62,295 bases of DNA from positions 1 to 62,295 of the IMG/VR virus record IMGVR_UViG_3300042357_000538. One strand, given 5' to 3'. Positions 20,824 through 46,520 of this stretch are shown here, piece by piece. The notes below the pieces were generated by a model. That model did no database searches, had not been told where the DNA came from, and saw only the letters and a list, made by a program, of their open reading frames with translations. Numbering within the stretch: position 1 is the stretch's first letter; every line of letters starts with the position of its first letter. The translations under genes and the position numbers were made by a program. The stretch is from a virus (Duplodnaviria; Caudoviricetes).

Positions 20824-20898
20824 GGGTTAACACGGCCCGAGTCGAACGGGCTCCTCCCGGCCTTCCAGCCGGGCGCGCTTCCAATGCGCTACGTGATA
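20824..20898 (-). tRNA. Aberrant tRNA-like element with an 8-nt anticodon loop (CTGGAAGG)
   Basis: Acceptor TATCACG/CGTGTTA (one U-U), D arm GCGC-ATTGGAA-GCGC, anticodon stem CCCGG/CCGGG, T arm GCCCG-TTCGACT-CGGGC. Confidence 0.65.
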
Positions 20899-28719: not shown

Positions 28720-29470
28720 GTCAAGCGGGTGGCCGCATGGCGGCCACCTCCCCCTCGATCCCCCCGCGTCCCCCGGCGGAGCGCTGCGGAAGGGGGATGA
28801 TGAGGGGTTTGTGGCGCTAAGTCCCGCCACATCAGCGGGTTACGGGGAAAAGAAGGGTGGGGGATGAGGGCGGGAGGTCGGCGGGAGGAGCGTTTTCAGG
28901 CCTGTTTTCGCAGATCCGGCGGGGGATGATCTGGGGGACGATGGCGGGGGAGGCAGTGGGGCGCACACGGCGCCCCTTCGTCCCCCGGGTTGTCCCACTG
29001 GGGAGGTGAGAAAACCGGCCTGTTTTCGCTGAGTCCCTTTGCTCCCCCCTCGATCCCCCTGCTGTAAATAGTGTGTATCCCCTTTATTATCAATAGGATA
29101 GGGGGAAAAGGCGGGTTTCGTCCCCCCAAAAGGAGCTGAATACTCGCCAAGGGACTTCCCAGCCAGGGAAACGCCACCCGTCGGCGGAATGCCTGGACAC
29201 TGTAATCAAACCCCGGGGGGTCGCGCGCGCGGGAAAGGTGGGGTGTGGGTGGGGGTGGCGGGGAGGGGGAGGTCGGCCCCTTGTCCCCCGCCGTGTCCCC
29301 CTCGGCCCCCCTCGTGGCCCCTCTCCTGCCCTGTGTCCTGCTGAGGGGACGGACCCCTGTCCCCTTGCGGCCCCAGTCCCGTCCCACCCGTCCCCTTGCG
29401 GCCCGCTGGCCTGTCCCCCCTATGGGCCAGCCTCCCCGGCTGGCCTGTCCCCCCTATGCCACACTCACCC
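28720..29470. other. Non-coding strand-switch region; candidate replication origin or genome-end region
   Basis: Divergence point of the two gene blocks; AT-rich core at about 29060-29110; many (T)GTCCC(C) repeats at 29280-29455. Confidence 0.5.
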
Positions 29471-29509: not shown

Positions 29510-29713
29510 ATGGCACCGACCCGCACCCCCCACGGCTACCCCGTCACCCGGCTTCGTGCCGGGGACTACACCGTCGCCACTCCCGCCGGTGAGTGGACAA
29601 TCCGCCACGAACCCGACTTGCGCGGCTGGCTGGTGCAAGACCGGCACGACGGCGAAGTTTGCGCCACCCTCGCTGAGGCCCTGCGCTACCTCGACGCCAC
29701 CCTGACCCGCTAA
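29510..29713 (+). CDS. Early hypothetical protein, 67 aa
   Basis: First ORF of the plus-strand block; coding-like codon bias. Confidence 0.65.
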   Translation: MAPTRTPHGYPVTRLRAGDYTVATPAGEWTIRHEPDLRGWLVQDRHDGEVCATLAEALRYLDATLTR

Positions 29714-29753
29714 TCCCACGGCACCGACGCCGCCCCTGACCGGAGACACCGAC

Positions 29754-30125
29754 ATGACCACCGCACCCGCCCTGCCCGCCGCCTGCACTGCCGCCCATGC
29801 CGCCGCCGCCCGTGGCGCGGCCCAGTCCTTCCAAATCGAGCGCGAGGCTGAGGCCTTCCTCGGGCGGCGCTGGGCCTTCCTGCCCTTCGACGCCACCCAG
29901 CCCGCCTCGGCACACATCCAGGCCTTCGCGCAGGCCATCCTCCCGAACCTTGGCGAGGCCGAAGCCGCTGAGGCCCTCTGGGCCTGCGGGGAGCGTACCC
30001 CGGCCGACTTCGGCGGCGACGGCCTGCGCGGCTACGCCGACGCCTTCCGCCACACGGTCCTCGGGATGGTCGCCCGCGCCATCCTCGCCCGCTACGTCAT
30101 CGACCTGCCGGAACGGTGGAGGTGA
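29754..30125 (+). CDS. Early hypothetical protein, 123 aa
   Basis: GGAG RBS; codon bias. Confidence 0.7.
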   Translation: MTTAPALPAACTAAHAAAARGAAQSFQIEREAEAFLGRRWAFLPFDATQPASAHIQAFAQAILPNLGEAEAAEALWACGERTPADFGGDGLRGYADAFRHTVLGMVARAILARYVIDLPERWR

Positions 30126-30162
30126 TGGCCCGCTAACCCCCGCGCGGCCCCCCTCGGGGCCG

Positions 30163-30233
30163 CGCCCCGTAATGCCCCGAGCTGGTGACAAGGCCAGCAC
30201 CCGGAATGCCTCCGGGAGGCAGAGTCAGGAGCG
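30163..30233 (+). ncRNA. Twister ribozyme 1 (predicted cleavage U30170/A30171)
   Basis: UAA, P2 UGCC/GGCA, P4 GCUGG/CCAGC, L4 U-GAC-AA-GG, T1 GAC/GUC, T2 CC/GG, P5 hairpin, GA; matches the twister consensus. Confidence 0.88.
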
Positions 30234-30240
30234 AACCCCC

Positions 30241-30489
30241 ATGCAGACCATCTACGCCGCCCTCGCCAACGCCCCCTGCACCCACTGCGCCGGGACTGGA
30301 CTCCTCCACGACGCCCCCGACGAACACACCTGCCCCTACTGCCTCGGGCGCACGACGCCCGACGGCGAGGCCCTCGACAACGCCCCCTGCCTCCTCTGCG
30401 GCGGGACCGGCTACTCGGTGCTGGTCGCTCAGCCGACCAGCGACGACACCTGCCCCGACTGCATGGGCAGCGGCCTCGGCGGCCAGTAG
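30241..30489 (+). CDS. Small DnaJ-type zinc-finger protein (CxxCxGxG-like x4)
   Basis: CTHCAGTG, CPYCLG, CLLCGGTG, CPDCMGSG; AGGAG RBS. Confidence 0.7.
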   Translation: MQTIYAALANAPCTHCAGTGLLHDAPDEHTCPYCLGRTTPDGEALDNAPCLLCGGTGYSVLVAQPTSDDTCPDCMGSGLGGQ

Positions 30490-30492
30490 CCC

Positions 30493-30570
30493 CTATGACA
30501 CACCGGGGCCAGACCACCGGCCCCAGCCCAGCGTATAAAGGGGTAGACCGGGCGGCTTGAGCCGCCGCCC
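30493..30570 (+). promoter_or_regulatory. Repeated element: CTATGACACA, GC inverted repeat, CGTATAAAGG, GAGCC-loop hairpin
   Basis: Same architecture and 41-42 nt spacing at 32462 and 33787. Confidence 0.65.
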
Positions 30571-30597
30571 GCCCCTTGCACCCGGAGGAACCATCCC

Positions 30598-30807
30598 ATG
30601 TCCAGCACCACGCCCATCAACACGCCCTACGCCGTCCTCGAACTGGGCGACGGCCACTTCGTCGTCGCCCGACGGTACCTGCGCGAGGACGGTATCCCGG
30701 TCTACCGGCTGGTGCCGGGAACGGCCGACTGGAGCTACCGCACGGTGCATTTCCGCGCTTCCGGCCTCGCTCAGCAGTCCGCAGTGCGCGAGGAGGTGGC
30801 GAAGTGA
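30598..30807 (+). CDS. Early hypothetical protein, 69 aa
   Basis: GGAGGAACC RBS. Confidence 0.7.
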   Translation: MSSTTPINTPYAVLELGDGHFVVARRYLREDGIPVYRLVPGTADWSYRTVHFRASGLAQQSAVREEVAK

Positions 30808-31145
30808 ACGCCTTCAGCCCGTCCATCCGCTACACCCTCGCCATCGGCCACAACGTCGCCGGTTTCCCCCACTGGTCCCGGGAGACCGTCGAGAGCACGG
30901 TCTCCGCCAATTGGACCCTGCCCGGCTTCACCCTGACCTCGGCCTTTGGCCGCTGGGAAGGCGTGGACGAAGACAGCACCCTCGTCACCTACCTCGGGGA
31001 CGCCTCCGACGAGGCGGCCATCCTCGCCATCGCGGAGCGCATCGCGGCCGACCTGCAGCAGGACGCCGTGCTGGTGACCGCCGAACCCGTGCGCGTCGCC
31101 TTCGTGTCGGCCCTGCGGGCCGACCGGGCCGAACCCGCCGCCTAG
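30804..31145 (+). CDS. SAM-lyase-like / DUF3574-like (PII-type fold) protein, 113 aa
   Basis: GFTLTSAFGRWEGVDEDSTLV...IAERIAADLQQDAVLV resembles the G-x-(W/Y)...E...QD-x-VLV pattern of T3 SAMase; GTG start with AGGAGG RBS. Confidence 0.6.
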   Translation: MNAFSPSIRYTLAIGHNVAGFPHWSRETVESTVSANWTLPGFTLTSAFGRWEGVDEDSTLVTYLGDASDEAAILAIAERIAADLQQDAVLVTAEPVRVAFVSALRADRAEPAA

Positions 31146-31172
31146 CCCCGTGTGGCCCCGCAAGGGGCCCAC

Positions 31173-31252
31173 GCTCGTAATGCCAGCGCCCGGTCCCAAC
31201 TCCGGGCAGTGGCGGGACCATCCTGGCCCCGACCACTCGGCAGAGGGAGAGC
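31173..31252 (+). ncRNA. Twister ribozyme 2 (predicted cleavage U31178/A31179)
   Basis: P1 GCUC/GAGC, P2 UGCC/GGCA, P4 GCCCGG/CCGGGC, L4 U-CCC-AA-CU, T1 CCC/GGG, T2 AG/CU. Confidence 0.88.
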
Positions 31253-31267
31253 AAAGGACACACTGCC

Positions 31268-31456
31268 ATGCCGCGCTACGCGTTCCTGCCCGACCTGCGC
31301 CTCGCGTCCCTCTGGTTCGACGCGGGCTGCGACCCCGTCGCCTACCGCGAGGCGCTCGTCGAGTACCTCGACGAGTCGCCCGACCTGCCGCTGGCCGACC
31401 TGCCCGTGGCCGACGCCGAACTCCGCCGCCTCGACGCCCTGCTGGGCGAGGACTAG
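31268..31456 (+). CDS. Small acidic protein, 62 aa
   Basis: AAAGGA RBS directly after twister 2. Confidence 0.65.
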   Translation: MPRYAFLPDLRLASLWFDAGCDPVAYREALVEYLDESPDLPLADLPVADAELRRLDALLGED

Positions 31457-31460
31457 CGCC

Positions 31461-31772
31461 ATGCCTGCCAACCTCCTCACGCCCATCCCGTGCCCGACCC
31501 CCGGCCGCGTGTGGCTGGTCCCCGCGCTGCCGACCCTCTGGGCCGCCTCCAAAAGCCGCGCCGACAAGGGCCAGGTACTGGCCGCCCTGCGCCGGGAGTG
31601 CGCCGCGCCCAACGTGCGCCGCCCCTTCCGCTGGGAACGGGTTGATGTCGGCCTGCGCACCTACTGGGCACCCTGCTGGGATGCGCCCGCCGCCTGCGCC
31701 CTGTCCCCGCGACAGGCCGAGCAGTACTGCTTTGGGGGACTGGTGCCCTACCCGACCGCCCTCAGGGGGTGA
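31461..31772 (+). CDS. Early hypothetical protein, 103 aa
   Basis: GAGGA RBS; start MPANLLT. Confidence 0.6.
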   Translation: MPANLLTPIPCPTPGRVWLVPALPTLWAASKSRADKGQVLAALRRECAAPNVRRPFRWERVDVGLRTYWAPCWDAPAACALSPRQAEQYCFGGLVPYPTALRG

Positions 31773-31782
31773 CACCACCCCT

Positions 31783-31798
31783 TGGCATCCCCCTTGCA
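31783..31798 (+). promoter_or_regulatory. sigma54-type -24/-12 promoter TGGCAT-CCCCC-TTGCA
   Basis: Identical 16-mer to 29482; predicted start just upstream of GGAGG and ATG 31826. Confidence 0.6.
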
Positions 31799-31825
31799 CC
31801 CTGACCACACCGGAGGAACCATCCC

Positions 31826-32362
31826 ATGAGCCACCCGACCGCCGCCGACTTCGCCTTCATCCGCCACGACGCCCGCGCGTGGTGGCATCACCGTGACCTG
31901 CGCGCCGCCGGTCGCCACGCCGAGGCCGCCCGCCTCGAACGCCGCAGCATCGCCAGCAAAATCCGCGACCTCCGGCGCGCCTGCCTCGTCGGGGTGGGCG
32001 CGGTCTCCCCGTGGTACGTCTCCGGGACGCACAGCAGCCTGTCCACGACCTCCGGCTGCGCGCCCGACACCCTCGCCCTGTTCGCCCGGTTCGCGCCCCA
32101 GACGCCGCGCGTGGACAAGCGCGCGCTGCACGCGGCCGACCCGGCGCGCTTCGCGCGCCTCGTCTACACCGCGCCCCTCCTCTCGCCCGACCGCGCCGAG
32201 GACGAAGTGAGCAGCATCGCGTATGTCACCCCCGGCCTGTACTGCGCCATCTGGGAGGCCCTCGGCGCGACGGTCCACTGGGGCGCGCTTGACGCCCAGG
32301 CCTTCCGCCGCGACCCCCGTGTGGCCGCGCATCTGGCCCGCATGACTCCAGGCGAGGCGTAG
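31826..32362 (+). CDS. Early hypothetical protein, 178 aa
   Basis: GGAGGAACC RBS. Confidence 0.7.
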   Translation: MSHPTAADFAFIRHDARAWWHHRDLRAAGRHAEAARLERRSIASKIRDLRRACLVGVGAVSPWYVSGTHSSLSTTSGCAPDTLALFARFAPQTPRVDKRALHAADPARFARLVYTAPLLSPDRAEDEVSSIAYVTPGLYCAIWEALGATVHWGALDAQAFRRDPRVAAHLARMTPGEA

Positions 32363-32392
32363 TCGGCCCGTCTCGCGGCCCCTCGGGGCCGC

Positions 32393-32463
32393 GCCGTAAT
32401 GCTCCTGACCGGTGCCAAGGCCGGTCGGTCGGTGCGTACCGCACCGCCTCAGCAGAGGCCGGT
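32393..32463 (+). ncRNA. Twister ribozyme 3 (predicted cleavage U32397/A32398)
   Basis: P1 GCCG/CGGU, P2 UGCU/AGCA, P4 GACCGG/CCGGUC, L4 U-GCC-AA-GG, T1 GCC/GGC, T2 CC/GG. Confidence 0.88.
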
Positions 32464-32535
32464 ATGACACACGCGCCCCTCGGCCACCGGTCGGGGGCCA
32501 GCGTCTAAGGGGGTGGAGGGCAGGAGCCGCCCTCC
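32462..32535 (+). promoter_or_regulatory. Repeated element: GTATGACACA, inverted repeat, CGTCTAAGGG, GAGCC-loop hairpin
   Basis: Second copy of the 30493 element. Confidence 0.65.
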
Positions 32536-32558
32536 CCCCGAACTGGAGCGAACCACCC

Positions 32559-32834
32559 ATGACGACTGTCCTGAACCTCCTACACGACGGCCCCGCCGAT
32601 GCGGCGGGCACCCACGGCAACGGCACCCAACTGCATTTCACCCTGACCCCTGGCGAACTGGGCAACGGGGAGGAATTCCTGCTCTCCCTCTGGGACAGTG
32701 CCGAGCAGGCGCAGCGCTACGGGCGCAGCGAGAACGAAGAGGTGCTGGTGCTGACCCTCACCCCCGAGCAGTGCGCCCAGGTCGCCGCTGCCGCCGCCCG
32801 CGCCACCGTCCGCTGGAACCGCGAGGAGGCCTAA
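32559..32834 (+). CDS. Early hypothetical protein, 91 aa; paralogous to 34874..35179
   Basis: LTLTPEQCAQV versus LELTPEQRARL. Confidence 0.65.
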   Translation: MTTVLNLLHDGPADAAGTHGNGTQLHFTLTPGELGNGEEFLLSLWDSAEQAQRYGRSENEEVLVLTLTPEQCAQVAAAAARATVRWNREEA

Positions 32835-32838
32835 CGCC

Positions 32839-33006
32839 ATGCTGAACCCGCGCACCCTCGCCGCCCGCTACCTCCGGACCTACGGCCCGGAGTACGCCCT
32901 CTCTGCCGCCCTGGCCGCCCTCGACGAGGCCCAGGCCTTCGGCTCCGCCACCCGCATCGCGACCCTCGAAGCCGTGGTCGCCACGCTCGAAACCGAGGTG
33001 CTGTGA
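32839..33006 (+). CDS. Early hypothetical protein, 55 aa (not in the ORF track)
   Basis: MLNPRTLAARYLRTYGPEYAL...; GAGGAGG RBS. Confidence 0.6.
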   Translation: MLNPRTLAARYLRTYGPEYALSAALAALDEAQAFGSATRIATLEAVVATLETEVL

Positions 33007-33203
33007 TGCCGCGCTACCGATTCACCCTCACGCGCACCCGCCTGCAGTCCCTGGTGGTGGAGATGGTCGCGCTTGACGCGCAGGAAGCGGAACACCTGCT
33101 GTGCGACGAACTGGATGAAGCCGACCCGTTCGACGCGCTGGTGTGGTCCGACGGCGAGAACGAGGGCGAGGTGGACTACGACTTCGATGGGGAGGTGCGC
33201 TGA
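33006..33203 (+). CDS. Small acidic protein
   Basis: Translationally coupled; D/E-rich C-terminus. Confidence 0.6.
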   Translation: MPRYRFTLTRTRLQSLVVEMVALDAQEAEHLLCDELDEADPFDALVWSDGENEGEVDYDFDGEVR

Positions 33204-33565
33204 TGTTGCGCCTGGGCCTCGACACCGGGTCGGCCATCAACCACCTCATGTCGCGCGCGCGGGTGACCATCCCGGCGGTCGGGGATGGGGCGACCGTCCT
33301 GATGTGGACCGACCGACACGCGGCCACCGTGGTCGCCGTCAAGGAAACGCCGGCGCTGGTCAAGGTGACCGTGCAGGAGGACCGCGCAGTCCGCACCGAC
33401 AGCAACGGCATGAGCGAGGTGCAGGCCTACGCCTTCACGCCGAACCCAGCCGCGCCGCTGCAGACGTTCACCTTCCGCAAGACGCCCGGCGGGCTGGTCT
33501 TGCGGGGCAAGGGGCGCGGTCTCCTGCTGGGCCATCGTGAGGAGTACCGCGACTTCAGTTTCTGA
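33203..33565 (+). CDS. Conserved phage hypothetical protein, 120 aa
   Basis: PAVGDGATVLMWTDRHAATV...GHREEYRDFSF; TGATG coupling. Confidence 0.7.
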   Translation: MLRLGLDTGSAINHLMSRARVTIPAVGDGATVLMWTDRHAATVVAVKETPALVKVTVQEDRAVRTDSNGMSEVQAYAFTPNPAAPLQTFTFRKTPGGLVLRGKGRGLLLGHREEYRDFSF

Positions 33566-33591
33566 CCCAATGGCGGGGCCACGGCCCCGCC

Positions 33592-33666
33592 CCTCGTAAT
33601 GCCGCAGCGCCCAGTGGCAAGCCTGGGCGCGGCGGGGATACTCCCCGCCGAGGGCAGAGCCAGAGG
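33592..33666 (+). ncRNA. Twister ribozyme 4 (predicted cleavage U33597/A33598)
   Basis: P1 CCUC/GAGG, P2 UGCC/GGCA, P4 GCGCCCAG/CUGGGCGC, L4 U-GGC-AA-GC, T1 GGC/GCC, T2 GC/GC. Confidence 0.88.
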
Positions 33667-33677
33667 AAGGAACCGCC

Positions 33678-33785
33678 ATGACCAGCATCCGCTCCCATCG
33701 TGTGGGCCGCGCCCACGCCCTGACCCTGACCGGAGGCCCAGCGATGACCACCACCCTGCCCGACGGCTGGTGGCGGGACGCCTGA
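33678..33785 (+). CDS. 35-aa peptide directly after twister 4
   Basis: GGAAGGAACC RBS; MTSIRSHRVGRAHALTLTGGPAMTTTLPDGWWRDA. Confidence 0.45.
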   Translation: MTSIRSHRVGRAHALTLTGGPAMTTTLPDGWWRDA

Positions 33786-33786
33786 G

Positions 33787-33866
33787 CTATGACACAGCCG
33801 GGGCCGACCAGCGGTCGGCCCCCACCGTCTAAGGGAGTACCAGGGCGCGGGCACTGAGCCGCCCGC
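33787..33866 (+). promoter_or_regulatory. Repeated element: CTATGACACA, inverted repeat, CGTCTAAGGG, GAGCC-loop hairpin
   Basis: Third copy of the 30493 element. Confidence 0.65.
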
Positions 33867-33887
33867 CCCCCTTTGGAGGAACCACCG

Positions 33888-34304
33888 ATGATGACCAACC
33901 CGGCGCAACGCGCCACCCCCACCGTGCAGCAGGAGTCGCAGTTCGGCCAGGACCCCGGCGATATCCAGGTCGCGCTGCCCGCGCTCTTCAGCGCCGACTG
34001 CACCGAGGCGACCCGCGAGTTCCGGACGCGCCCGGACCTCCAGGTGCGATGGTTCATGCCCCTGCGGGCCGCAGGCCCGGAGTCGGACCCGACCGCCCGC
34101 CTCCTCGGGCAGGTGGAACTGTTCGGCGTCCTCCACCACATCGACCTCACCGCCATCCGCCTGGACGGTGACCTCCAGGTGGTGGACTGCCCCGAGGAGG
34201 AGTGCCTGGGCGAGGAGATGTTCACGGTCGTCGGCGGGGCACTCGACCCCGTCATGGTCAACGGACGCCTCTACGGCGTCCTCATCTACCCCTACGGGTA
34301 CTAG
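33888..34304 (+). CDS. Early hypothetical protein, 138 aa
   Basis: GGAGGAACC RBS. Confidence 0.7.
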   Translation: MMTNPAQRATPTVQQESQFGQDPGDIQVALPALFSADCTEATREFRTRPDLQVRWFMPLRAAGPESDPTARLLGQVELFGVLHHIDLTAIRLDGDLQVVDCPEEECLGEEMFTVVGGALDPVMVNGRLYGVLIYPYGY

Positions 34305-34314
34305 GAGCCGCATC

Positions 34315-34542
34315 ATGCCGAACGAAACCTGGGGGGAACTCCTGGCGCGCCAGGAGCGGGAGCGCGCCAACTTCCGGCCCAAGCTGCGCACGTATGCCGT
34401 GTGCCTGCGGGGCATCTGGTCGGAGGTGTACACGGTCGAGGCGCTCAACGAGGAGGAGGCACTCGCTCAGGCCATCGCCCTGGAGCAGGGCAACCAGAAC
34501 CGTGACCTCGACATCAACGGGACCGACATCGACGAACTGTAG
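34315..34542 (+). CDS. Small acidic protein, 75 aa
   Basis: YAVCL...YTVEALNEEEALAQA; AGGAG RBS. Confidence 0.65.
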   Translation: MPNETWGELLARQERERANFRPKLRTYAVCLRGIWSEVYTVEALNEEEALAQAIALEQGNQNRDLDINGTDIDEL

Positions 34543-34555
34543 GAGGACTAGCCCC

Positions 34556-34768
34556 ATGCCGACCATCATCACCCTGACCGTCACCGTCCACGACTCCATC
34601 CCCGAGGCCGCCGAGGCGCTGCATGTGCTGCCCGCGACCCTGCCCCAGGCCATCGCCGAGGAACTCCAGTCCGCGCTGGACTGGGAGACCGGCCTCCACG
34701 CCTCGGTCGAGGTCGCCTCGGTCACCGAGCTGCCCGAGGTCGCGACCGCCACCATCGTTGTGTCATAG
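34556..34768 (+). CDS. Small acidic protein, 70 aa
   Basis: AGGAGG RBS. Confidence 0.6.
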   Translation: MPTIITLTVTVHDSIPEAAEALHVLPATLPQAIAEELQSALDWETGLHASVEVASVTELPEVATATIVVS

Positions 34769-34842
34769 CCCCTTGCGGGGTATTGACACCGCGCACCACG
34801 CGCCCGTAGTATCCGGGGGTCGGGCTTGAGCCGCCCGACCCC
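34759..34842 (+). promoter_or_regulatory. Inverted TGTGTCATAG box, TTGACA-N18-TAGTAT promoter and GAGCC-loop hairpin
   Basis: Read directly. Confidence 0.7.
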
Positions 34843-43426: not shown

Positions 43427-43761
43427 CACTCACCGACGAGCAGGTGCGGGCGCTGGCGGAGGAAGTCCACGACGTGGAGCAGACGTGGGAGGGGCACACG
43501 TTCCGCTTCATGTTCACCGGGCGTGAGCCGATCCGCCAGCATGTGCGGGCCGACGCGGTCAAGGCCCTCGCCACCGAAGTCCTCGCCAGCCGGGGGCGGC
43601 GGTGTGGGGCGTGTGTCTACTGGGAGGCCCACCCAGACTTGTGGGCACAAGACTCGGACGGCAATCACTTGGGAAACTGTGGCCGAGGAGTGGACGCAGA
43701 GAGTGGCTGCACGCGCCTGCGCTGGTCCTGCGCCGACTTCACCCCCAAGGGTGTGTCATAG
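43423..43761 (+). CDS. Hypothetical protein with CGACVYW...GNC...CADF
   Basis: ATGA coupling. Confidence 0.6.
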   Translation: MTLTDEQVRALAEEVHDVEQTWEGHTFRFMFTGREPIRQHVRADAVKALATEVLASRGRRCGACVYWEAHPDLWAQDSDGNHLGNCGRGVDAESGCTRLRWSCADFTPKGVS

Positions 43762-43794
43762 CCCTTGACAACGGGTAAGCAAGGGGCGTAAGGT
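43752..43794 (+). promoter_or_regulatory. Inverted TGTGTCATAG box plus TTGACA-N18-TAAGGT promoter
   Basis: Read directly. Confidence 0.65.
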
Positions 43795-46350: not shown

Positions 46351-46432
46351 TCGCCCGTAATTGTTGCGCCTATTGCACATACCTGCGCGTAGCGCCGATA
46401 CCCGCAAGAACTTCAAGTACTCAGGCCTCTGA

Positions 46433-46512
46433 CTATGACACAGCGCGTAACCCCCGCGCGCGCAGAAACATGGCGGAAAGGCCTTGACGCTACCCCTGCC
46501 CACCCCTAGGAT
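46433..46512 (+). promoter_or_regulatory. CTATGACACA box plus TTGACG-N17-TAGGAT promoter; near-leaderless polymerase mRNA
   Basis: The -10 element ends 8 nt before ATG 46521. Confidence 0.6.
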
Positions 46513-46520
46513 AAGAGGGC

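What the first reader, a model, noticed from the sequence alone, without database searches (positions are those of the whole stretch)
30222..30243. Twister P1 strand overlaps or abuts the ribosome-binding site of the next gene
Seen: in twister 1 the P1 3' strand (AGGAGCG, 30227-30233) is the SD for ATG 30241. In twister 4, GAGG (33663-33666) overlaps GAGGAAGGA before ATG 33678. In twister 2, AAAGGA follows P1 directly. Inference: cleavage releases the P1 5' strand and exposes the SD, so self-cleavage would switch on or time translation.
Basis: partly seen in the sequence, partly recalled or inferred. Interest (0 to 1): 0.7.

Follow-up and report, generated by a model that had tools for sequence, protein, structure and literature searches.

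The report
Phage twister ribozymes abutting ribosome-binding sites
Four self-cleaving twister ribozymes sit between genes of a lake-water phage, and three end at the next gene's ribosome-binding site; this looks more like compact mRNA-cutting modules than a proven translation switch.

Summary
The sequence facts hold. Four type-P1 twister ribozymes lie on the + strand, with cleavage U^A at 30170/71, 31178/79, 32397/98 and 33597/98. Rfam scores all four below threshold. In all four, P2 and both pseudoknots are fully Watson-Crick, with compensatory changes. My descriptor finds 4 in the window and 0 in 100 shuffles.

Each ribozyme follows a GC hairpin, probably the optional stem P0. Three end 14-20 nt before an ATG. 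The Shine-Dalgarno (SD) sequence overlaps the P1 3' strand in T1 and T4 and starts 2 nt after it in T2. T3 has no adjacent ribosome site.

The switch idea is only partly supported. P1 is 2-4 bp. With the core constrained, folding predicts SD-like bases freed by cleavage only in T4 (0.38 to 0.79), not in T1 or T2. Among 53 dereplicated canonical phage twisters, the SD overlaps P1 in 6, abuts it in 7, lies further away in 23, and 17 have no nearby start. By contrast, 38 of 53 carry the upstream hairpin against about 14% in controls.

Best reading: constitutive processing modules of a polycistronic early mRNA. Freeing the SD is a side effect, possibly real for T4. Cleavage itself is untested.

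The parts
30142..30165 (+). T1 upstream GC hairpin (10 bp, 4-nt loop), probable optional stem P0. It starts 16 nt after stop codon 30123-30125.
   Evidence: RNAfold of the 30 nt before the cleavage U gives -24.8 kcal/mol, with the 3' end 4 nt from U; sequence.
30170..30226 (+). Twister T1 core. Cleavage is U30170^A30171. P2 is 30173-76 with 30218-21. T2 pseudoknot is CC 30177-78 with GG 30192-93. P4 is 30181-85 with 30194-98. T1 pseudoknot is GAC 30187-89 with GUC 30224-26. P5 hairpin is 30200-30216.
   Evidence: All pairs are Watson-Crick. Descriptor hit. Rfam gives only Twister-P5 at 11.1 bits against a gathering score of 37.6.
30227..30233 (+). The SD AGGAG is 30227-30231, 9 nt before ATG 30241. 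Only G30228 and G30229 pair uncontested, with C30168 and C30167.
   Evidence: The constrained fold gives P1 probability about 0.48.
30241..30489 (+). 82-aa ORF after T1, a DnaJ-type CxxCxGxG zinc-finger protein.
   Evidence: GC at codon positions 1/2/3 is 0.65/0.58/0.95. Pfam PF00684 E 1.9e-6, 28.5 bits against a cut-off of 32.7.
31149..31173 (+). T2 upstream hairpin (P0-like, GCAA loop, one bulge). It starts 3 nt after stop codon 31143-31145.
   Evidence: -20.2 kcal/mol, 3' end 4 nt from U.
31178..31247 (+). Twister T2 core. Cleavage is U31178^A31179. P2 is 31181-84 with 31239-42. T2 pseudoknot is AG with CU. P4 is 31188-93 with 31202-07. T1 pseudoknot is CCC 31195-97 with GGG 31245-47. It has a long P5.
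   Evidence: Rfam Twister-P5 gives 19.7 bits over 31159-31205 against a gathering score of 37.6.
31248..31258 (+). T2: an A, then P1 3' strand GAGC (31249-52, pairing with GCUC 31173-76), then SD AAGGA at 31254-58, 9 nt before ATG 31268.
   Evidence: P1 probability is 0.95-0.98, and SD accessibility is unchanged by cleavage.
31268..31456 (+). 62-aa ORF after T2.
   Evidence: GC at codon positions 1/2/3 is 0.83/0.41/0.98. No Pfam or PHROG hit.
32374..32393 (+). T3 upstream hairpin (8 bp), P0-like. It starts 11 nt after stop codon 32360-32362.
   Evidence: -19.5 kcal/mol, 3' end 3 nt from U.
32397..32463 (+). Twister T3 core (to 32459) plus P1 3' strand CGGU (32460-63). Cleavage is U32397^A32398. 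P2 is UGCU with AGCA. T2 pseudoknot is CC with GG. T1 pseudoknot is GCC with GGC. No SD or start follows; the repeated element B begins at 32463.
   Evidence: Rfam Twister-P5 gives 16.8 bits.
33572..33591 (+). T4 upstream hairpin (8-9 bp), P0-like. It starts 6 nt after stop codon 33563-33565 and directly abuts the P1 5' strand CCUC at 33592-95.
   Evidence: -19.5 kcal/mol, 3' end 5 nt from U.
33597..33661 (+). Twister T4 core. Cleavage is U33597^A33598. P2 is 33600-03 with 33653-56. T2 pseudoknot is GC with GC. P4 is 33607-14 with 33623-30. T1 pseudoknot is GGC 33616-18 with GCC 33659-61. It has a P5 hairpin.
   Evidence: Rfam twister-P1 gives 18.9 bits against a gathering score of 67.2.
33663..33671 (+). 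T4 purine tract GAGGAAGGA. GAGG (33663-66) is the P1 3' strand, 11 nt before the ATG. AAGGA (33667-71) is outside P1, 6 nt before ATG 33678.
   Evidence: P1 probability is about 1.0 before cleavage, and GAGG is 0.98-1.0 unpaired after it. A 1-nt deletion at 33667 appears in contigs of two runs.
33678..33785 (+). 35-aa ORF after T4.
   Evidence: GC at codon positions 1/2/3 is 0.61/0.69/0.86. Listed by the ORF listing. Its coding status is less certain than for the other two ORFs.

Best explanation
The four elements are active type-P1 twister ribozymes. Each has an upstream P0-like hairpin and a P5 stem, lacks P3, and carries non-canonical but compensated pseudoknot sequences. They sit in the intergenic gaps of the phage's rightward operon of small genes.

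Each gap of 112-122 nt is filled by one module: stop codon, GC hairpin, a 3-5 nt P1 5' strand, U^A, the ribozyme core, the P1 3' strand, SD, then ATG.

Inferred mechanism: the ribozymes cut constitutively and co-transcriptionally, splitting the polycistronic RNA.
- The upstream piece ends in a stable hairpin plus 4-6 nt and a 2',3'-cyclic phosphate, which makes it a poor 3'-exonuclease substrate.
- The downstream piece starts with a 5'-OH and two free A residues on a compact double-pseudoknot fold, directly before the ribosome site. This acts as a 5' stabiliser and as insulation from upstream RNA.
- Because P1 is only 2-4 bp, the 5' product leaves at once and the P1 3' strand becomes free.

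The SD can therefore be packed into or against P1 without cost. On this reading the overlap is mainly a result of tight packing. A real translational gain is plausible only for T4.

Shown: the anatomy, the covariation, and the recurrence of the module in other phages. Inferred: cleavage itself, the fate of the products, and any effect on translation.
For: 1. The twisters are real. Across 4 copies, 9 of 9 P2/T1/T2 pairs are Watson-Crick, with double-sided changes at 5 positions. T1 is GAC/GUC, CCC/GGG, GCC/GGC and GGC/GCC. T2 is CC/GG, AG/CU, CC/GG and GC/GC. P2 is UGCC/GGCA in three copies and UGCU/AGCA in one. P4 is 5-8 bp and the P5 hairpins all differ. The descriptor gives 4 hits against 0 in 100 shuffles.
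2. Every copy has a hairpin of -19.5 to -24.8 kcal/mol ending 3-5 nt before the cleavage U.
3. The same hairpin occurs in 38 of 53 dereplicated canonical type-P1 twisters from IMG/VR. Controls gave 135 of 1001 random positions and 163 of 1134 post-stop windows. The twister review names an optional stem P0.
4. P1 is short in those twisters too, with mean 3.0-3.9 bp outside the overlap class. P1 is reported dispensable for cleavage.
5. Of the 53, 36 have an SD plus start within 70 nt downstream, spread continuously from +11 to +57. The SD overlaps P1 in only 6.
6. T3 has the full module but no ribosome site, so the ribozyme does not need an SD partner.
7. The genes are co-directional, with no consensus promoter or convincing terminator between 29.5 and 34.7 kb.
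8. Constrained folding shows no SD gain for T1 or T2.
9. A review notes that processing of polycistronic transcripts has been suggested for bacterial twisters and that the role is unsettled.
Against: - No cleavage assay or RNA data exist. All 24 runs that hold the region are DNA.
- Rfam scores are far below gathering thresholds: 11.1-19.7 bits against 37.6 or 67.2.
- The A-rich junction before the P2 3' strand, typical of the canonical sample, is reduced to A, C, UC or GAG beside P5. Activity could therefore be impaired.
- For T4, the constrained fold does predict that cleavage frees GAGG.
- In the comparison set, the SD-overlap class has longer P1 stems (mean 5.3 against 3.0-3.9 bp). An engineered SD-in-P1 twister gave 5-fold. 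Masking may therefore be real in some phages.
- The claims about product stability rest on general knowledge of bacterial RNases, not on this system.
- The host is unknown.
Confidence: 0.5

Rival explanations
1. One reading: the selected function is cleavage-dependent unmasking of the SD. Before cleavage, P1 (stacked on the upstream hairpin) hides the SD. Cleavage removes the P1 5' strand and turns on or times translation of the genes at 30241 and 33678, and perhaps 31268.
For: - The SD-like bases do lie in the P1 3' strand of T1 and T4.
- For T4, P1 forms with probability about 1.0, and mean accessibility of the purine tract rises from 0.38 to 0.79 on cleavage. The AAGGA guanines and the AUG stay paired in both states.
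- Synthetic precedent: an SD in twister P1 gave about 5-fold and in P3 about 100-fold.
- Some unrelated IMG/VR phages have a 6-7 bp P1 that contains the SD: L221, L189 and L151.
- In the 53-cluster sample, the only two starts called with the conserved GAGGG strand (which stays paired after cleavage) as their SD are L170 (GTG at +11; the script filed it under 'abut') and L222 (ATG at +12, GAGG at -5..-1; dropped to 'none' once that SD was penalised). I judge both doubtful. The SD does occur in P1.
- A natural 1-nt deletion at 33667 moves the SD further into P1.
Against: - T1's uncontested P1 is 2 bp (-2.1 kcal/mol), with no predicted gain in accessibility (0.34 to 0.26).
- T2's SD lies outside P1 (0.59 to 0.61).
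- Overlap is the minority among comparators, at 6 of 53 with 2 doubtful. The longer P1 in that class is partly circular, because a longer strand overlaps more.
- T3 has no SD.
- There is no sign of any input that would regulate cleavage, so a fast constitutive ribozyme gives no switch or timer.
- The twisters are absent from 80 loci that carry homologues of the gene upstream of T4.
Confidence: 0.22
2. Reverse coupling: ribosome binding at the SD, or a phage or host factor, competes with formation of P1 and the T1 pseudoknot. Translation status would then decide whether the transcript is cut.
For: The T1 pseudoknot 3' strand and P1 lie within about 14-25 nt of the AUG. By general knowledge, that is inside or next to a 30S footprint.
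Against: The whole ribozyme is transcribed before the SD. Twisters are described as efficient self-cleavers (abstract of PMC5408937). P1 is dispensable for cleavage. There are no supporting data.
Confidence: 0.05
3. The elements no longer cleave. They are structured relics, and the GC hairpins act as terminators, attenuators or stability elements. SD proximity would then be meaningless.
For: Rfam scores are below threshold. The junction nucleotides beside P5 are non-canonical.
Against: Perfect compensatory pairing in two pseudoknots and P2 across four otherwise divergent copies is hard to keep without selection on the fold. The hairpins lack U tracts, and none of them was called as a terminator.
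Confidence: 0.08
4. The twisters mark the borders of inserted gene cassettes (ribozyme, small ORF, element B). Their primary role would be tied to cassette acquisition or to a separate promoter in element B, not to the adjacent SD.
For: The order twister, then a small ORF or none, then element B recurs three times. Twisters are absent next to homologues of the flanking gene in 80 other phage loci. The small ORFs are orphans.
Against: No repeats, integrase or transposase accompany them. The four copies are too divergent to be recent insertions. Element B has no identified function.
Confidence: 0.08

Closest known systems
Type-P1 twister self-cleaving ribozyme (Rfam RF03160, clan CL00120), with optional stems P0 and P5
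   Same: The order of elements matches: P1, U-A-A, P2, T2 strand, P4 with a U-NNN-AA-NN loop, P5, P2', G-A, T1 strand, P1'. Both pseudoknots are present. P1 is short. A hairpin lies just 5' of P1, as in 38 of 53 canonical phage examples. The setting is a phage.
   Different: The pseudoknot triplets and doublets are not the canonical CCC/GGG and GC/GC in three of four copies, so the Rfam models score only 11-20 bits. The A-rich junction before P2' is reduced. Activity is untested.
Engineered twister and hammerhead expression platforms that sequester the SD in a ribozyme stem (Felletti et al. 2016, PMC5052635; passages read)
   Same: The SD is placed in the P1 3' strand of a type-P1 twister in the 5' UTR. 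Cleavage removes the anti-SD strand and raises expression about 5-fold in E. coli.
   Different: In the engineered constructs, the SD and a designed anti-SD were deliberately built into the stem. Here P1 is 2-4 bp, only part of the SD lies in it, and no effect has been measured.
Ribozyme insulators and ribozyme-assisted polycistronic expression in synthetic biology (RiboJ, recalled and not read; pRAP, PMC9872166, search listing only)
   Same: A self-cleaving ribozyme just upstream of a ribosome site cuts off the upstream RNA. Each cistron then has a defined 5' end and is translated independently.
   Different: Those are designed parts. The natural modules add a hairpin upstream of the cut rather than downstream, and their benefit is inferred.
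Self-cleaving ribozymes in the 5' UTRs and intergenic regions of RNA viruses of fungi and plants, proposed to support translation initiation (PMC13725137; abstract and passages read)
   Same: Viral ribozymes, including twisters, lie a few nucleotides upstream of an ORF start. One hammerhead cuts 7 nt before a start codon.
   Different: Those are eukaryotic hosts and RNA genomes, with cap-independent initiation rather than SD pairing. The paper set DNA bacteriophages aside.

Membership tests
Twister ribozyme (type P1) | Stems P1, P2 and P4 in type-P1 order, with the termini in P1. | tested here: met
   P2 is 4 of 4 Watson-Crick and P4 is 5-8 bp in all four copies. P1 is 2-4 bp. UAA and P2 5' lie upstream, and P2 3', GA and the T1 strand lie downstream of P4.
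Twister ribozyme (type P1) | Two pseudoknots: T1 (P4 loop triplet with the triplet after G-A) and T2 (doublet after P2 with the doublet after the loop AA). | tested here: met
   All 20 cells (5 pairs x 4 copies) are Watson-Crick. There are 2 to 3 pair types at four of the five positions. The descriptor found 0 hits in 100 shuffles.
Twister ribozyme (type P1) | Strongly conserved nucleotides in loops L1 and L4: the cleavage-site U-A-A, the loop U and AA, and G-A before T1. | tested here: inconclusive
   UAA, the loop U, AA and GA are present in all four copies. The canonical C and G residues of T1 and T2 are replaced by covarying bases. The A-rich junction seen in the canonical sample is reduced. 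The full list of conserved positions sits in a figure I could not see.
Twister ribozyme (type P1) | Rfam gathering score. | tested here: not met
   The best scores are 19.7 bits (Twister-P5, gathering score 37.6) and 18.9 bits (twister-P1, gathering score 67.2). T1 scores 11.1 and T3 scores 16.8. Covariance models do not score pseudoknot covariation, which explains the shortfall.
Twister ribozyme (type P1) | Site-specific self-cleavage giving a 2',3'-cyclic phosphate and a 5'-OH. | not testable with these tools
   No RNA run holds the region. This needs an in-vitro assay.
Twister optional stem P0 | An extra stem besides P1, P2 and P4, named in the refined consensus. | tested here: inconclusive
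   A hairpin ends 3-5 nt 5' of the cleavage U in 4 of 4 window copies and in 38 of 53 comparators. The review names P0 but the text I read does not give its position. That it lies 5' of P1 is my recollection.
SD-sequestering ribozyme switch (as engineered) | The SD lies inside a ribozyme stem whose other strand is lost on cleavage. | tested here: inconclusive
   T1 has 2 of 5 SD bases in uncontested pairs. In T4, GAGG lies in P1 but the better-spaced AAGGA is outside. In T2 the SD is outside. T3 has none.
SD-sequestering ribozyme switch (as engineered) | The stem is stable enough to hide the SD before cleavage, and accessibility rises after it. | tested here: inconclusive
   Predicted change in mean unpaired probability: T1 0.34 to 0.26, T2 0.59 to 0.61, T4 0.38 to 0.79. 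The model ignores tertiary structure.
SD-sequestering ribozyme switch (as engineered) | Higher translation from active than from dead ribozyme. | not testable with these tools
   This needs reporter or toeprint experiments.

The most novel reading that the evidence does not exclude
A natural cleavage-gated ribosome site. In T4 of this phage, translation of the downstream small gene would require twister self-cleavage to release the SD from P1. The same would apply more strongly in unrelated IMG/VR phages whose 6-7 bp P1 contains the SD (L221, L189, L151). That would be the first natural counterpart of the engineered SD-sequestering ribozymes, and a concrete biological role for bacterial and phage twisters.
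Probability: 0.22. Interest if true: 0.75.

Novelty: new variant of a known kind. Interest (0 to 1): 0.5.

Why it matters
The biological role of bacterial and phage twister ribozymes is still described as elusive (reviews read; paper introductions).

This phage offers a compact natural test set within 3.5 kb of one operon:
- four divergent but structurally intact twisters;
- three that touch a ribosome site to different degrees (overlap, partial overlap, abutting);
- one with no ribosome site, which serves as an internal control.

Reporter and RNA-end experiments on these four could separate 'processing or insulation' from 'SD unmasking'. So could experiments on the stronger SD-in-P1 cases found in other phage contigs.

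The copies also show that Rfam models miss twisters whose pseudoknots have covaried, so such ribozymes are probably under-counted.

Tried and rejected
- **Rfam Twister-P5 reading.** Rfam aligned the upstream hairpin as a closed P1 in T2 and T3. I rejected this because the P2 3' strand, G-A and the T1 strand all lie downstream of P4.
- **MAFFT alignment A1 of the four copies.** It misaligned the P2/T2 region of T4, so I did not use it for a covariance model. No model was built and the count of structure pairs was not run. The pair table comes from my own script.
- **Loose window-type pattern scan of IMG/VR (119 stretches).** It gave only 2 descriptor hits in 1.02 Mb (L030, L118), against 2 in the reversed control. 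These are not counted as relatives.
- **Unconstrained folding.** It did not recover P1 or P2 and gave inconsistent SD accessibilities (T1 0.36 to 0.24, T2 0.53 to 0.45, T4 0.35 to 0.73). The constrained run superseded it.
- **Search for relatives.** blastn of 29700-34400 against GenBank phages found no match. The 178-aa protein had no relatives in IMG/VR. The polymerase gave one trivial 14-residue match. tblastn of the polymerase and portal found only 23-26% identity, best rows Bacillus, Agrobacterium and Arthrobacter phages for the polymerase and Arthrobacter and Microbacterium phages for the portal. The host stays unknown.
- **Homologues of the 120-aa gene upstream of T4.** There were 56 proteins including the query itself. 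I aligned 34 of the 56. Of 149 IMG/VR relatives, the tool kept 80 loci. The strict descriptor gave 0 hits in 598,401 bases against 0 in the control. The relaxed descriptor gave 4 against 5 in the control. Permuted P3 and P5 types would be missed by both.
- **Sequencing runs.** No RNA holder was listed. All 24 rows are DNA runs labelled lake water metagenome.
- **Laying four runs.** This gave short, near-identical contigs with no substitutions inside the twisters where they were covered, and one 1-nt deletion at 33667. Uncovered parts say nothing.
- **P1-length comparison (permutation p 0.0015).** I reject this as evidence for masking, because a longer P1 strand overlaps an SD more easily by construction.
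- **Element B.** No Rfam family matched it. The three-sequence consensus fold is weak.
- **Literature.** Searches found no report of a natural twister whose P1 holds an SD. That covers only the open-access library. The original twister papers and Felletti 2017 were not held, and supplements are closed. Those may show the position of P0 and gene contexts.
Full report
**What the window is.** It is a complete IMG/VR virus record of 62,295 bases with direct terminal repeats and 70.6% G+C. Third-position GC shows leftward genes at about 0.4-28.6 kb and 51.2-62.2 kb. These include a portal-like protein. Rightward genes run from about 29.5 to 51 kb and include a DNA polymerase. The closest cultured-phage proteins are only 23-26% identical. 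blastn of 29700-34400 against GenBank phages finds nothing. Near-identical DNA occurs in runs labelled lake water metagenome. The finding lies in the first 5 kb of the rightward operon, a run of small, mostly orphan genes.

**Are the twisters real?** Rfam at gathering thresholds reports only a tRNA. At loose thresholds it gives sub-threshold twister hits:
- 19.7 bits at T2 and 18.9 bits at T4;
- 11.1 bits at T1;
- 16.8 bits at T3.

Read directly, all four copies have the full type-P1 layout:
- U-A-A;
- a 4-bp P2;
- a doublet that pairs with the doublet after the loop AA (pseudoknot T2);
- a 5-8 bp P4 closed by a U-NNN-AA-NN loop;
- a P5 hairpin;
- the P2 3' strand, then G-A;
- a triplet that pairs with the loop triplet (pseudoknot T1).

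The pseudoknots covary. T1 is GAC/GUC, CCC/GGG, GCC/GGC and GGC/GCC. T2 is CC/GG, AG/CU, CC/GG and GC/GC. P2 changes from UGCC/GGCA to UGCU/AGCA in T3. No pair is broken in any copy. The P4 and P5 sequences all differ.

A descriptor encoding these rules finds exactly these four on the + strand. It finds none on the - strand, none in the reversed sequence and none in 100 dinucleotide shuffles. A relaxed version gives the same four. The low Rfam scores are expected, because covariance models treat the canonical pseudoknot letters as fixed sequence. I rate the elements as genuine twisters at about 0.9. Catalysis itself is untested, and the A-rich junction before P2' that is typical of canonical examples is reduced here.

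**The observation.** The coordinates are correct.
- T1: AGGAG (30227-30231) directly follows the T1 strand and lies 9 nt before ATG 30241.
- T4: GAGG (33663-33666) pairs with CCUC (33592-33595) and begins the tract GAGGAAGGA before ATG 33678.
- T2: the P1 strand GAGC (31249-31252) is followed by AAAGGA, and ATG 31268 follows.

The three downstream ORFs have coding-like third-position GC of 0.95, 0.98 and 0.86. The first is a DnaJ-type zinc-finger protein.

Two corrections are needed.
1. T1's P1 is really 2 uncontested base pairs.
2. T3 has no ribosome site. Its P1 3' strand, CGGU, runs into a different repeated element.

**Anatomy of the whole module.** Every twister is preceded by a GC hairpin of -19.5 to -24.8 kcal/mol. 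The hairpin starts 3-16 nt after the upstream stop codon and ends 3-5 nt before the cleavage U. The entire intergenic gap (112-122 nt for T1, T2 and T4) is hairpin, P1, core, P1', SD and spacer. No consensus promoter and no convincing terminator lies between the genes.

**Comparison with other phage twisters.** They held 121 matches, of which 88 parsed as type P1. Of those, 85 had enough flank (89 of 92, both counts including the 4 window copies), and they collapse to 53 clusters.
- Upstream hairpin: 38 of 53 have a stable hairpin ending within 6 nt of the cleavage U, most often 3 nt. Controls gave 135 of 1001 random positions and 163 of 1134 windows after stop codons. The twister review names an optional stem P0, which is most likely this hairpin. 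So this feature is known, but its enrichment here is strong.
- Downstream start: 36 of 53 have an SD plus start within 70 nt on the same strand, at distances spread from +11 to +57.
- SD position relative to P1: it overlaps P1 by at least 2 nt in 6 clusters, starts within 3 nt in 7, lies further away in 23, and 17 have no nearby start. By eye, 2 of the 6 overlap calls (L212, L194) rest on doubtful start choices.
- Clear overlap cases exist. L221 and L189 have a 7-bp P1 whose 3' strand, AGGAAGG, runs into the SD. L151 has 6 bp and L144 has 4 bp.
- Only two starts were called with the conserved GAGGG strand as their SD: L170 (GTG at +11; the script filed it under 'abut') and L222 (ATG at +12; moved to 'none' once that SD was penalised). 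I judge both doubtful.

The window's arrangement is therefore a recurrent but minority variant. It sits at the tight end of a continuum of twister-to-start distances.

**Does cleavage expose the SD here?** As two-piece duplexes the P1 helices are worth -2.1 (T1), -6.7 (T2), -4.3 (T3) and -6.2 (T4) kcal/mol. Release of the 5' product is credible. P1 is in any case reported dispensable for catalysis.

I then folded each module with P2 and P4 enforced and the pseudoknot bases held single-stranded.

| Twister | P1 probability before cleavage | Mean SD accessibility, uncleaved to cleaved |
|---|---|---|
| T1 | 0.48 | 0.34 to 0.26 |
| T2 | 0.95-0.98 | 0.59 to 0.61 |
| T4 | about 1.0 | 0.38 to 0.79 |

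In T4, GAGG goes from paired to 0.98-1.0 unpaired. The AAGGA guanines and the AUG stay paired with downstream sequence in both states. The model omits tertiary structure and hairpin-P1 stacking, so these numbers are indicative only.

The engineered precedent (SD in twister P1, about 5-fold; in P3, about 100-fold) shows that the mechanism can work. It used stems built for the purpose. Nothing suggests regulated cleavage, so a 'timer' has no basis.

**Most likely mechanism.** I favour constitutive processing modules, at 0.5. The ribozyme would cut the early polycistronic RNA in each gap.
- The upstream product ends in a hairpin plus 4-6 nt and a cyclic phosphate.
- The downstream product begins two nucleotides before a compact fold that sits directly against the ribosome site.

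Stability and insulation effects follow from general knowledge of bacterial RNA decay. They are inferred, not shown. The short P1, possibly stabilised by stacking on the hairpin, lets the SD be packed into or against it, because cleavage frees that strand. T3 has the full module without a ribosome site, which shows the ribozyme is not there for the SD alone.

The remaining rivals are reverse coupling, inactive relics and cassette borders, at 0.05 to 0.08 each.

**Evolutionary context.** Homologues of the 120-aa gene upstream of T4 are common: 56 proteins including the query and 149 IMG/VR relatives, of which 80 loci were kept. None of those 80 loci (598 kb) has a twister above the control rate. 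The ribozymes are therefore lineage-specific additions, not old partners of these genes. The four copies are too divergent to be recent duplicates. Population data add one variant: a 1-nt deletion at 33667 in contigs of two runs, which turns GAGGAAGGA into GAGGAGGA (low depth).

**Novelty and limits.** Twisters in phages, P0, and synthetic SD sequestration are all known. My literature searches found no report of a natural SD-in-P1 twister and no established role for phage twisters. Reviews call the role unsettled. The library is open-access only. The original twister papers and Felletti 2017 were not held, and supplements were closed. The finding is a sound observation with a plausible but mostly unsupported mechanism. 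Its value is as a compact, testable system.

Noticed in passing
window 30494-30597, 32463-32558, 33788-33887 (+); the 11-mer alone also at 46432-46442 (+), 34759-34769 (-) and 43752-43762 (-): A second repeated element, 'B', has this layout: GCTATGACACA, a variable hairpin, CAGCGTnTAAGGGG, a second hairpin, then GGAGGAACC..ATG. It always lies between a twister (or the small ORF after it) and the next larger gene. T3's P1 3' strand runs straight into it. TATGACACA with up to 1 mismatch occurs 9 times against 2.1 expected. No Rfam family matches. It could be a promoter or operator, or an RNA leader.
   Followed up: partly
window 30142-30165, 31149-31173, 32374-32393, 33572-33591; IMG/VR loci L124-L235: A GC hairpin ends 3-5 nt before the cleavage U in all four window twisters. 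The same is seen in 38 of 53 dereplicated canonical phage type-P1 twisters, against about 14% in controls. It is probably the optional stem P0. Its role (3'-end protection, stacking on a short P1) is open.
   Followed up: yes
IMG/VR loci L221, L143, L207, L166, L189, L151, L144: These unrelated phage contigs carry canonical twisters whose 4-7 bp P1 3' strand is itself the SD (for example AGGAAGG followed by AG, then an ATG 7 nt later). They are stronger candidates for cleavage-gated translation than the window's copies.
   Followed up: partly
window 33667: A 1-nt deletion, one A of GAGGAAGGA, appears in contigs of two lake-water runs (depth 3.8 and 4.7). It shifts the SD into the P1 3' strand of T4.
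   Followed up: no
window 30241-30489: The gene right after T1 encodes an 82-aa protein with repeated CxxCxGxG motifs. It matches Pfam DnaJ_CXXCXGXG (E 1.9e-6, below the cut-off) and gives weak PHROG hits to Q-like antiterminator families.
   Followed up: partly
window 29251-29301 (-): A weak Rfam hit to RAGATH-31 (23.8 bits against a gathering score of 71.8). By my recollection, the RAGATH families are named for association with twister and hammerhead gene neighbourhoods. The hit is probably just a GC hairpin.
   Followed up: no
L125 (- strand), about 30 nt after a canonical twister: The sequence after the twister looks like the 3' half of a tRNA (GGTTCGAATCC motif). This would be a twister next to a tRNA gene in another phage contig.
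   Followed up: no
window 34783-34812 (+) and 46490-46518 (+): Promoter-like sites of sigma-70 type. TTGACA-18-TAGTAT was found by the scan. TTGACG-17-TAGGAT, just before ATG 46521, I saw by eye in the aligned sequence. These hint that the host uses sigma-70-type promoters.
   Followed up: no
window 20827-20898 (-): A tRNA gene (47.5 bits) lies among the leftward structural genes.
   Followed up: no
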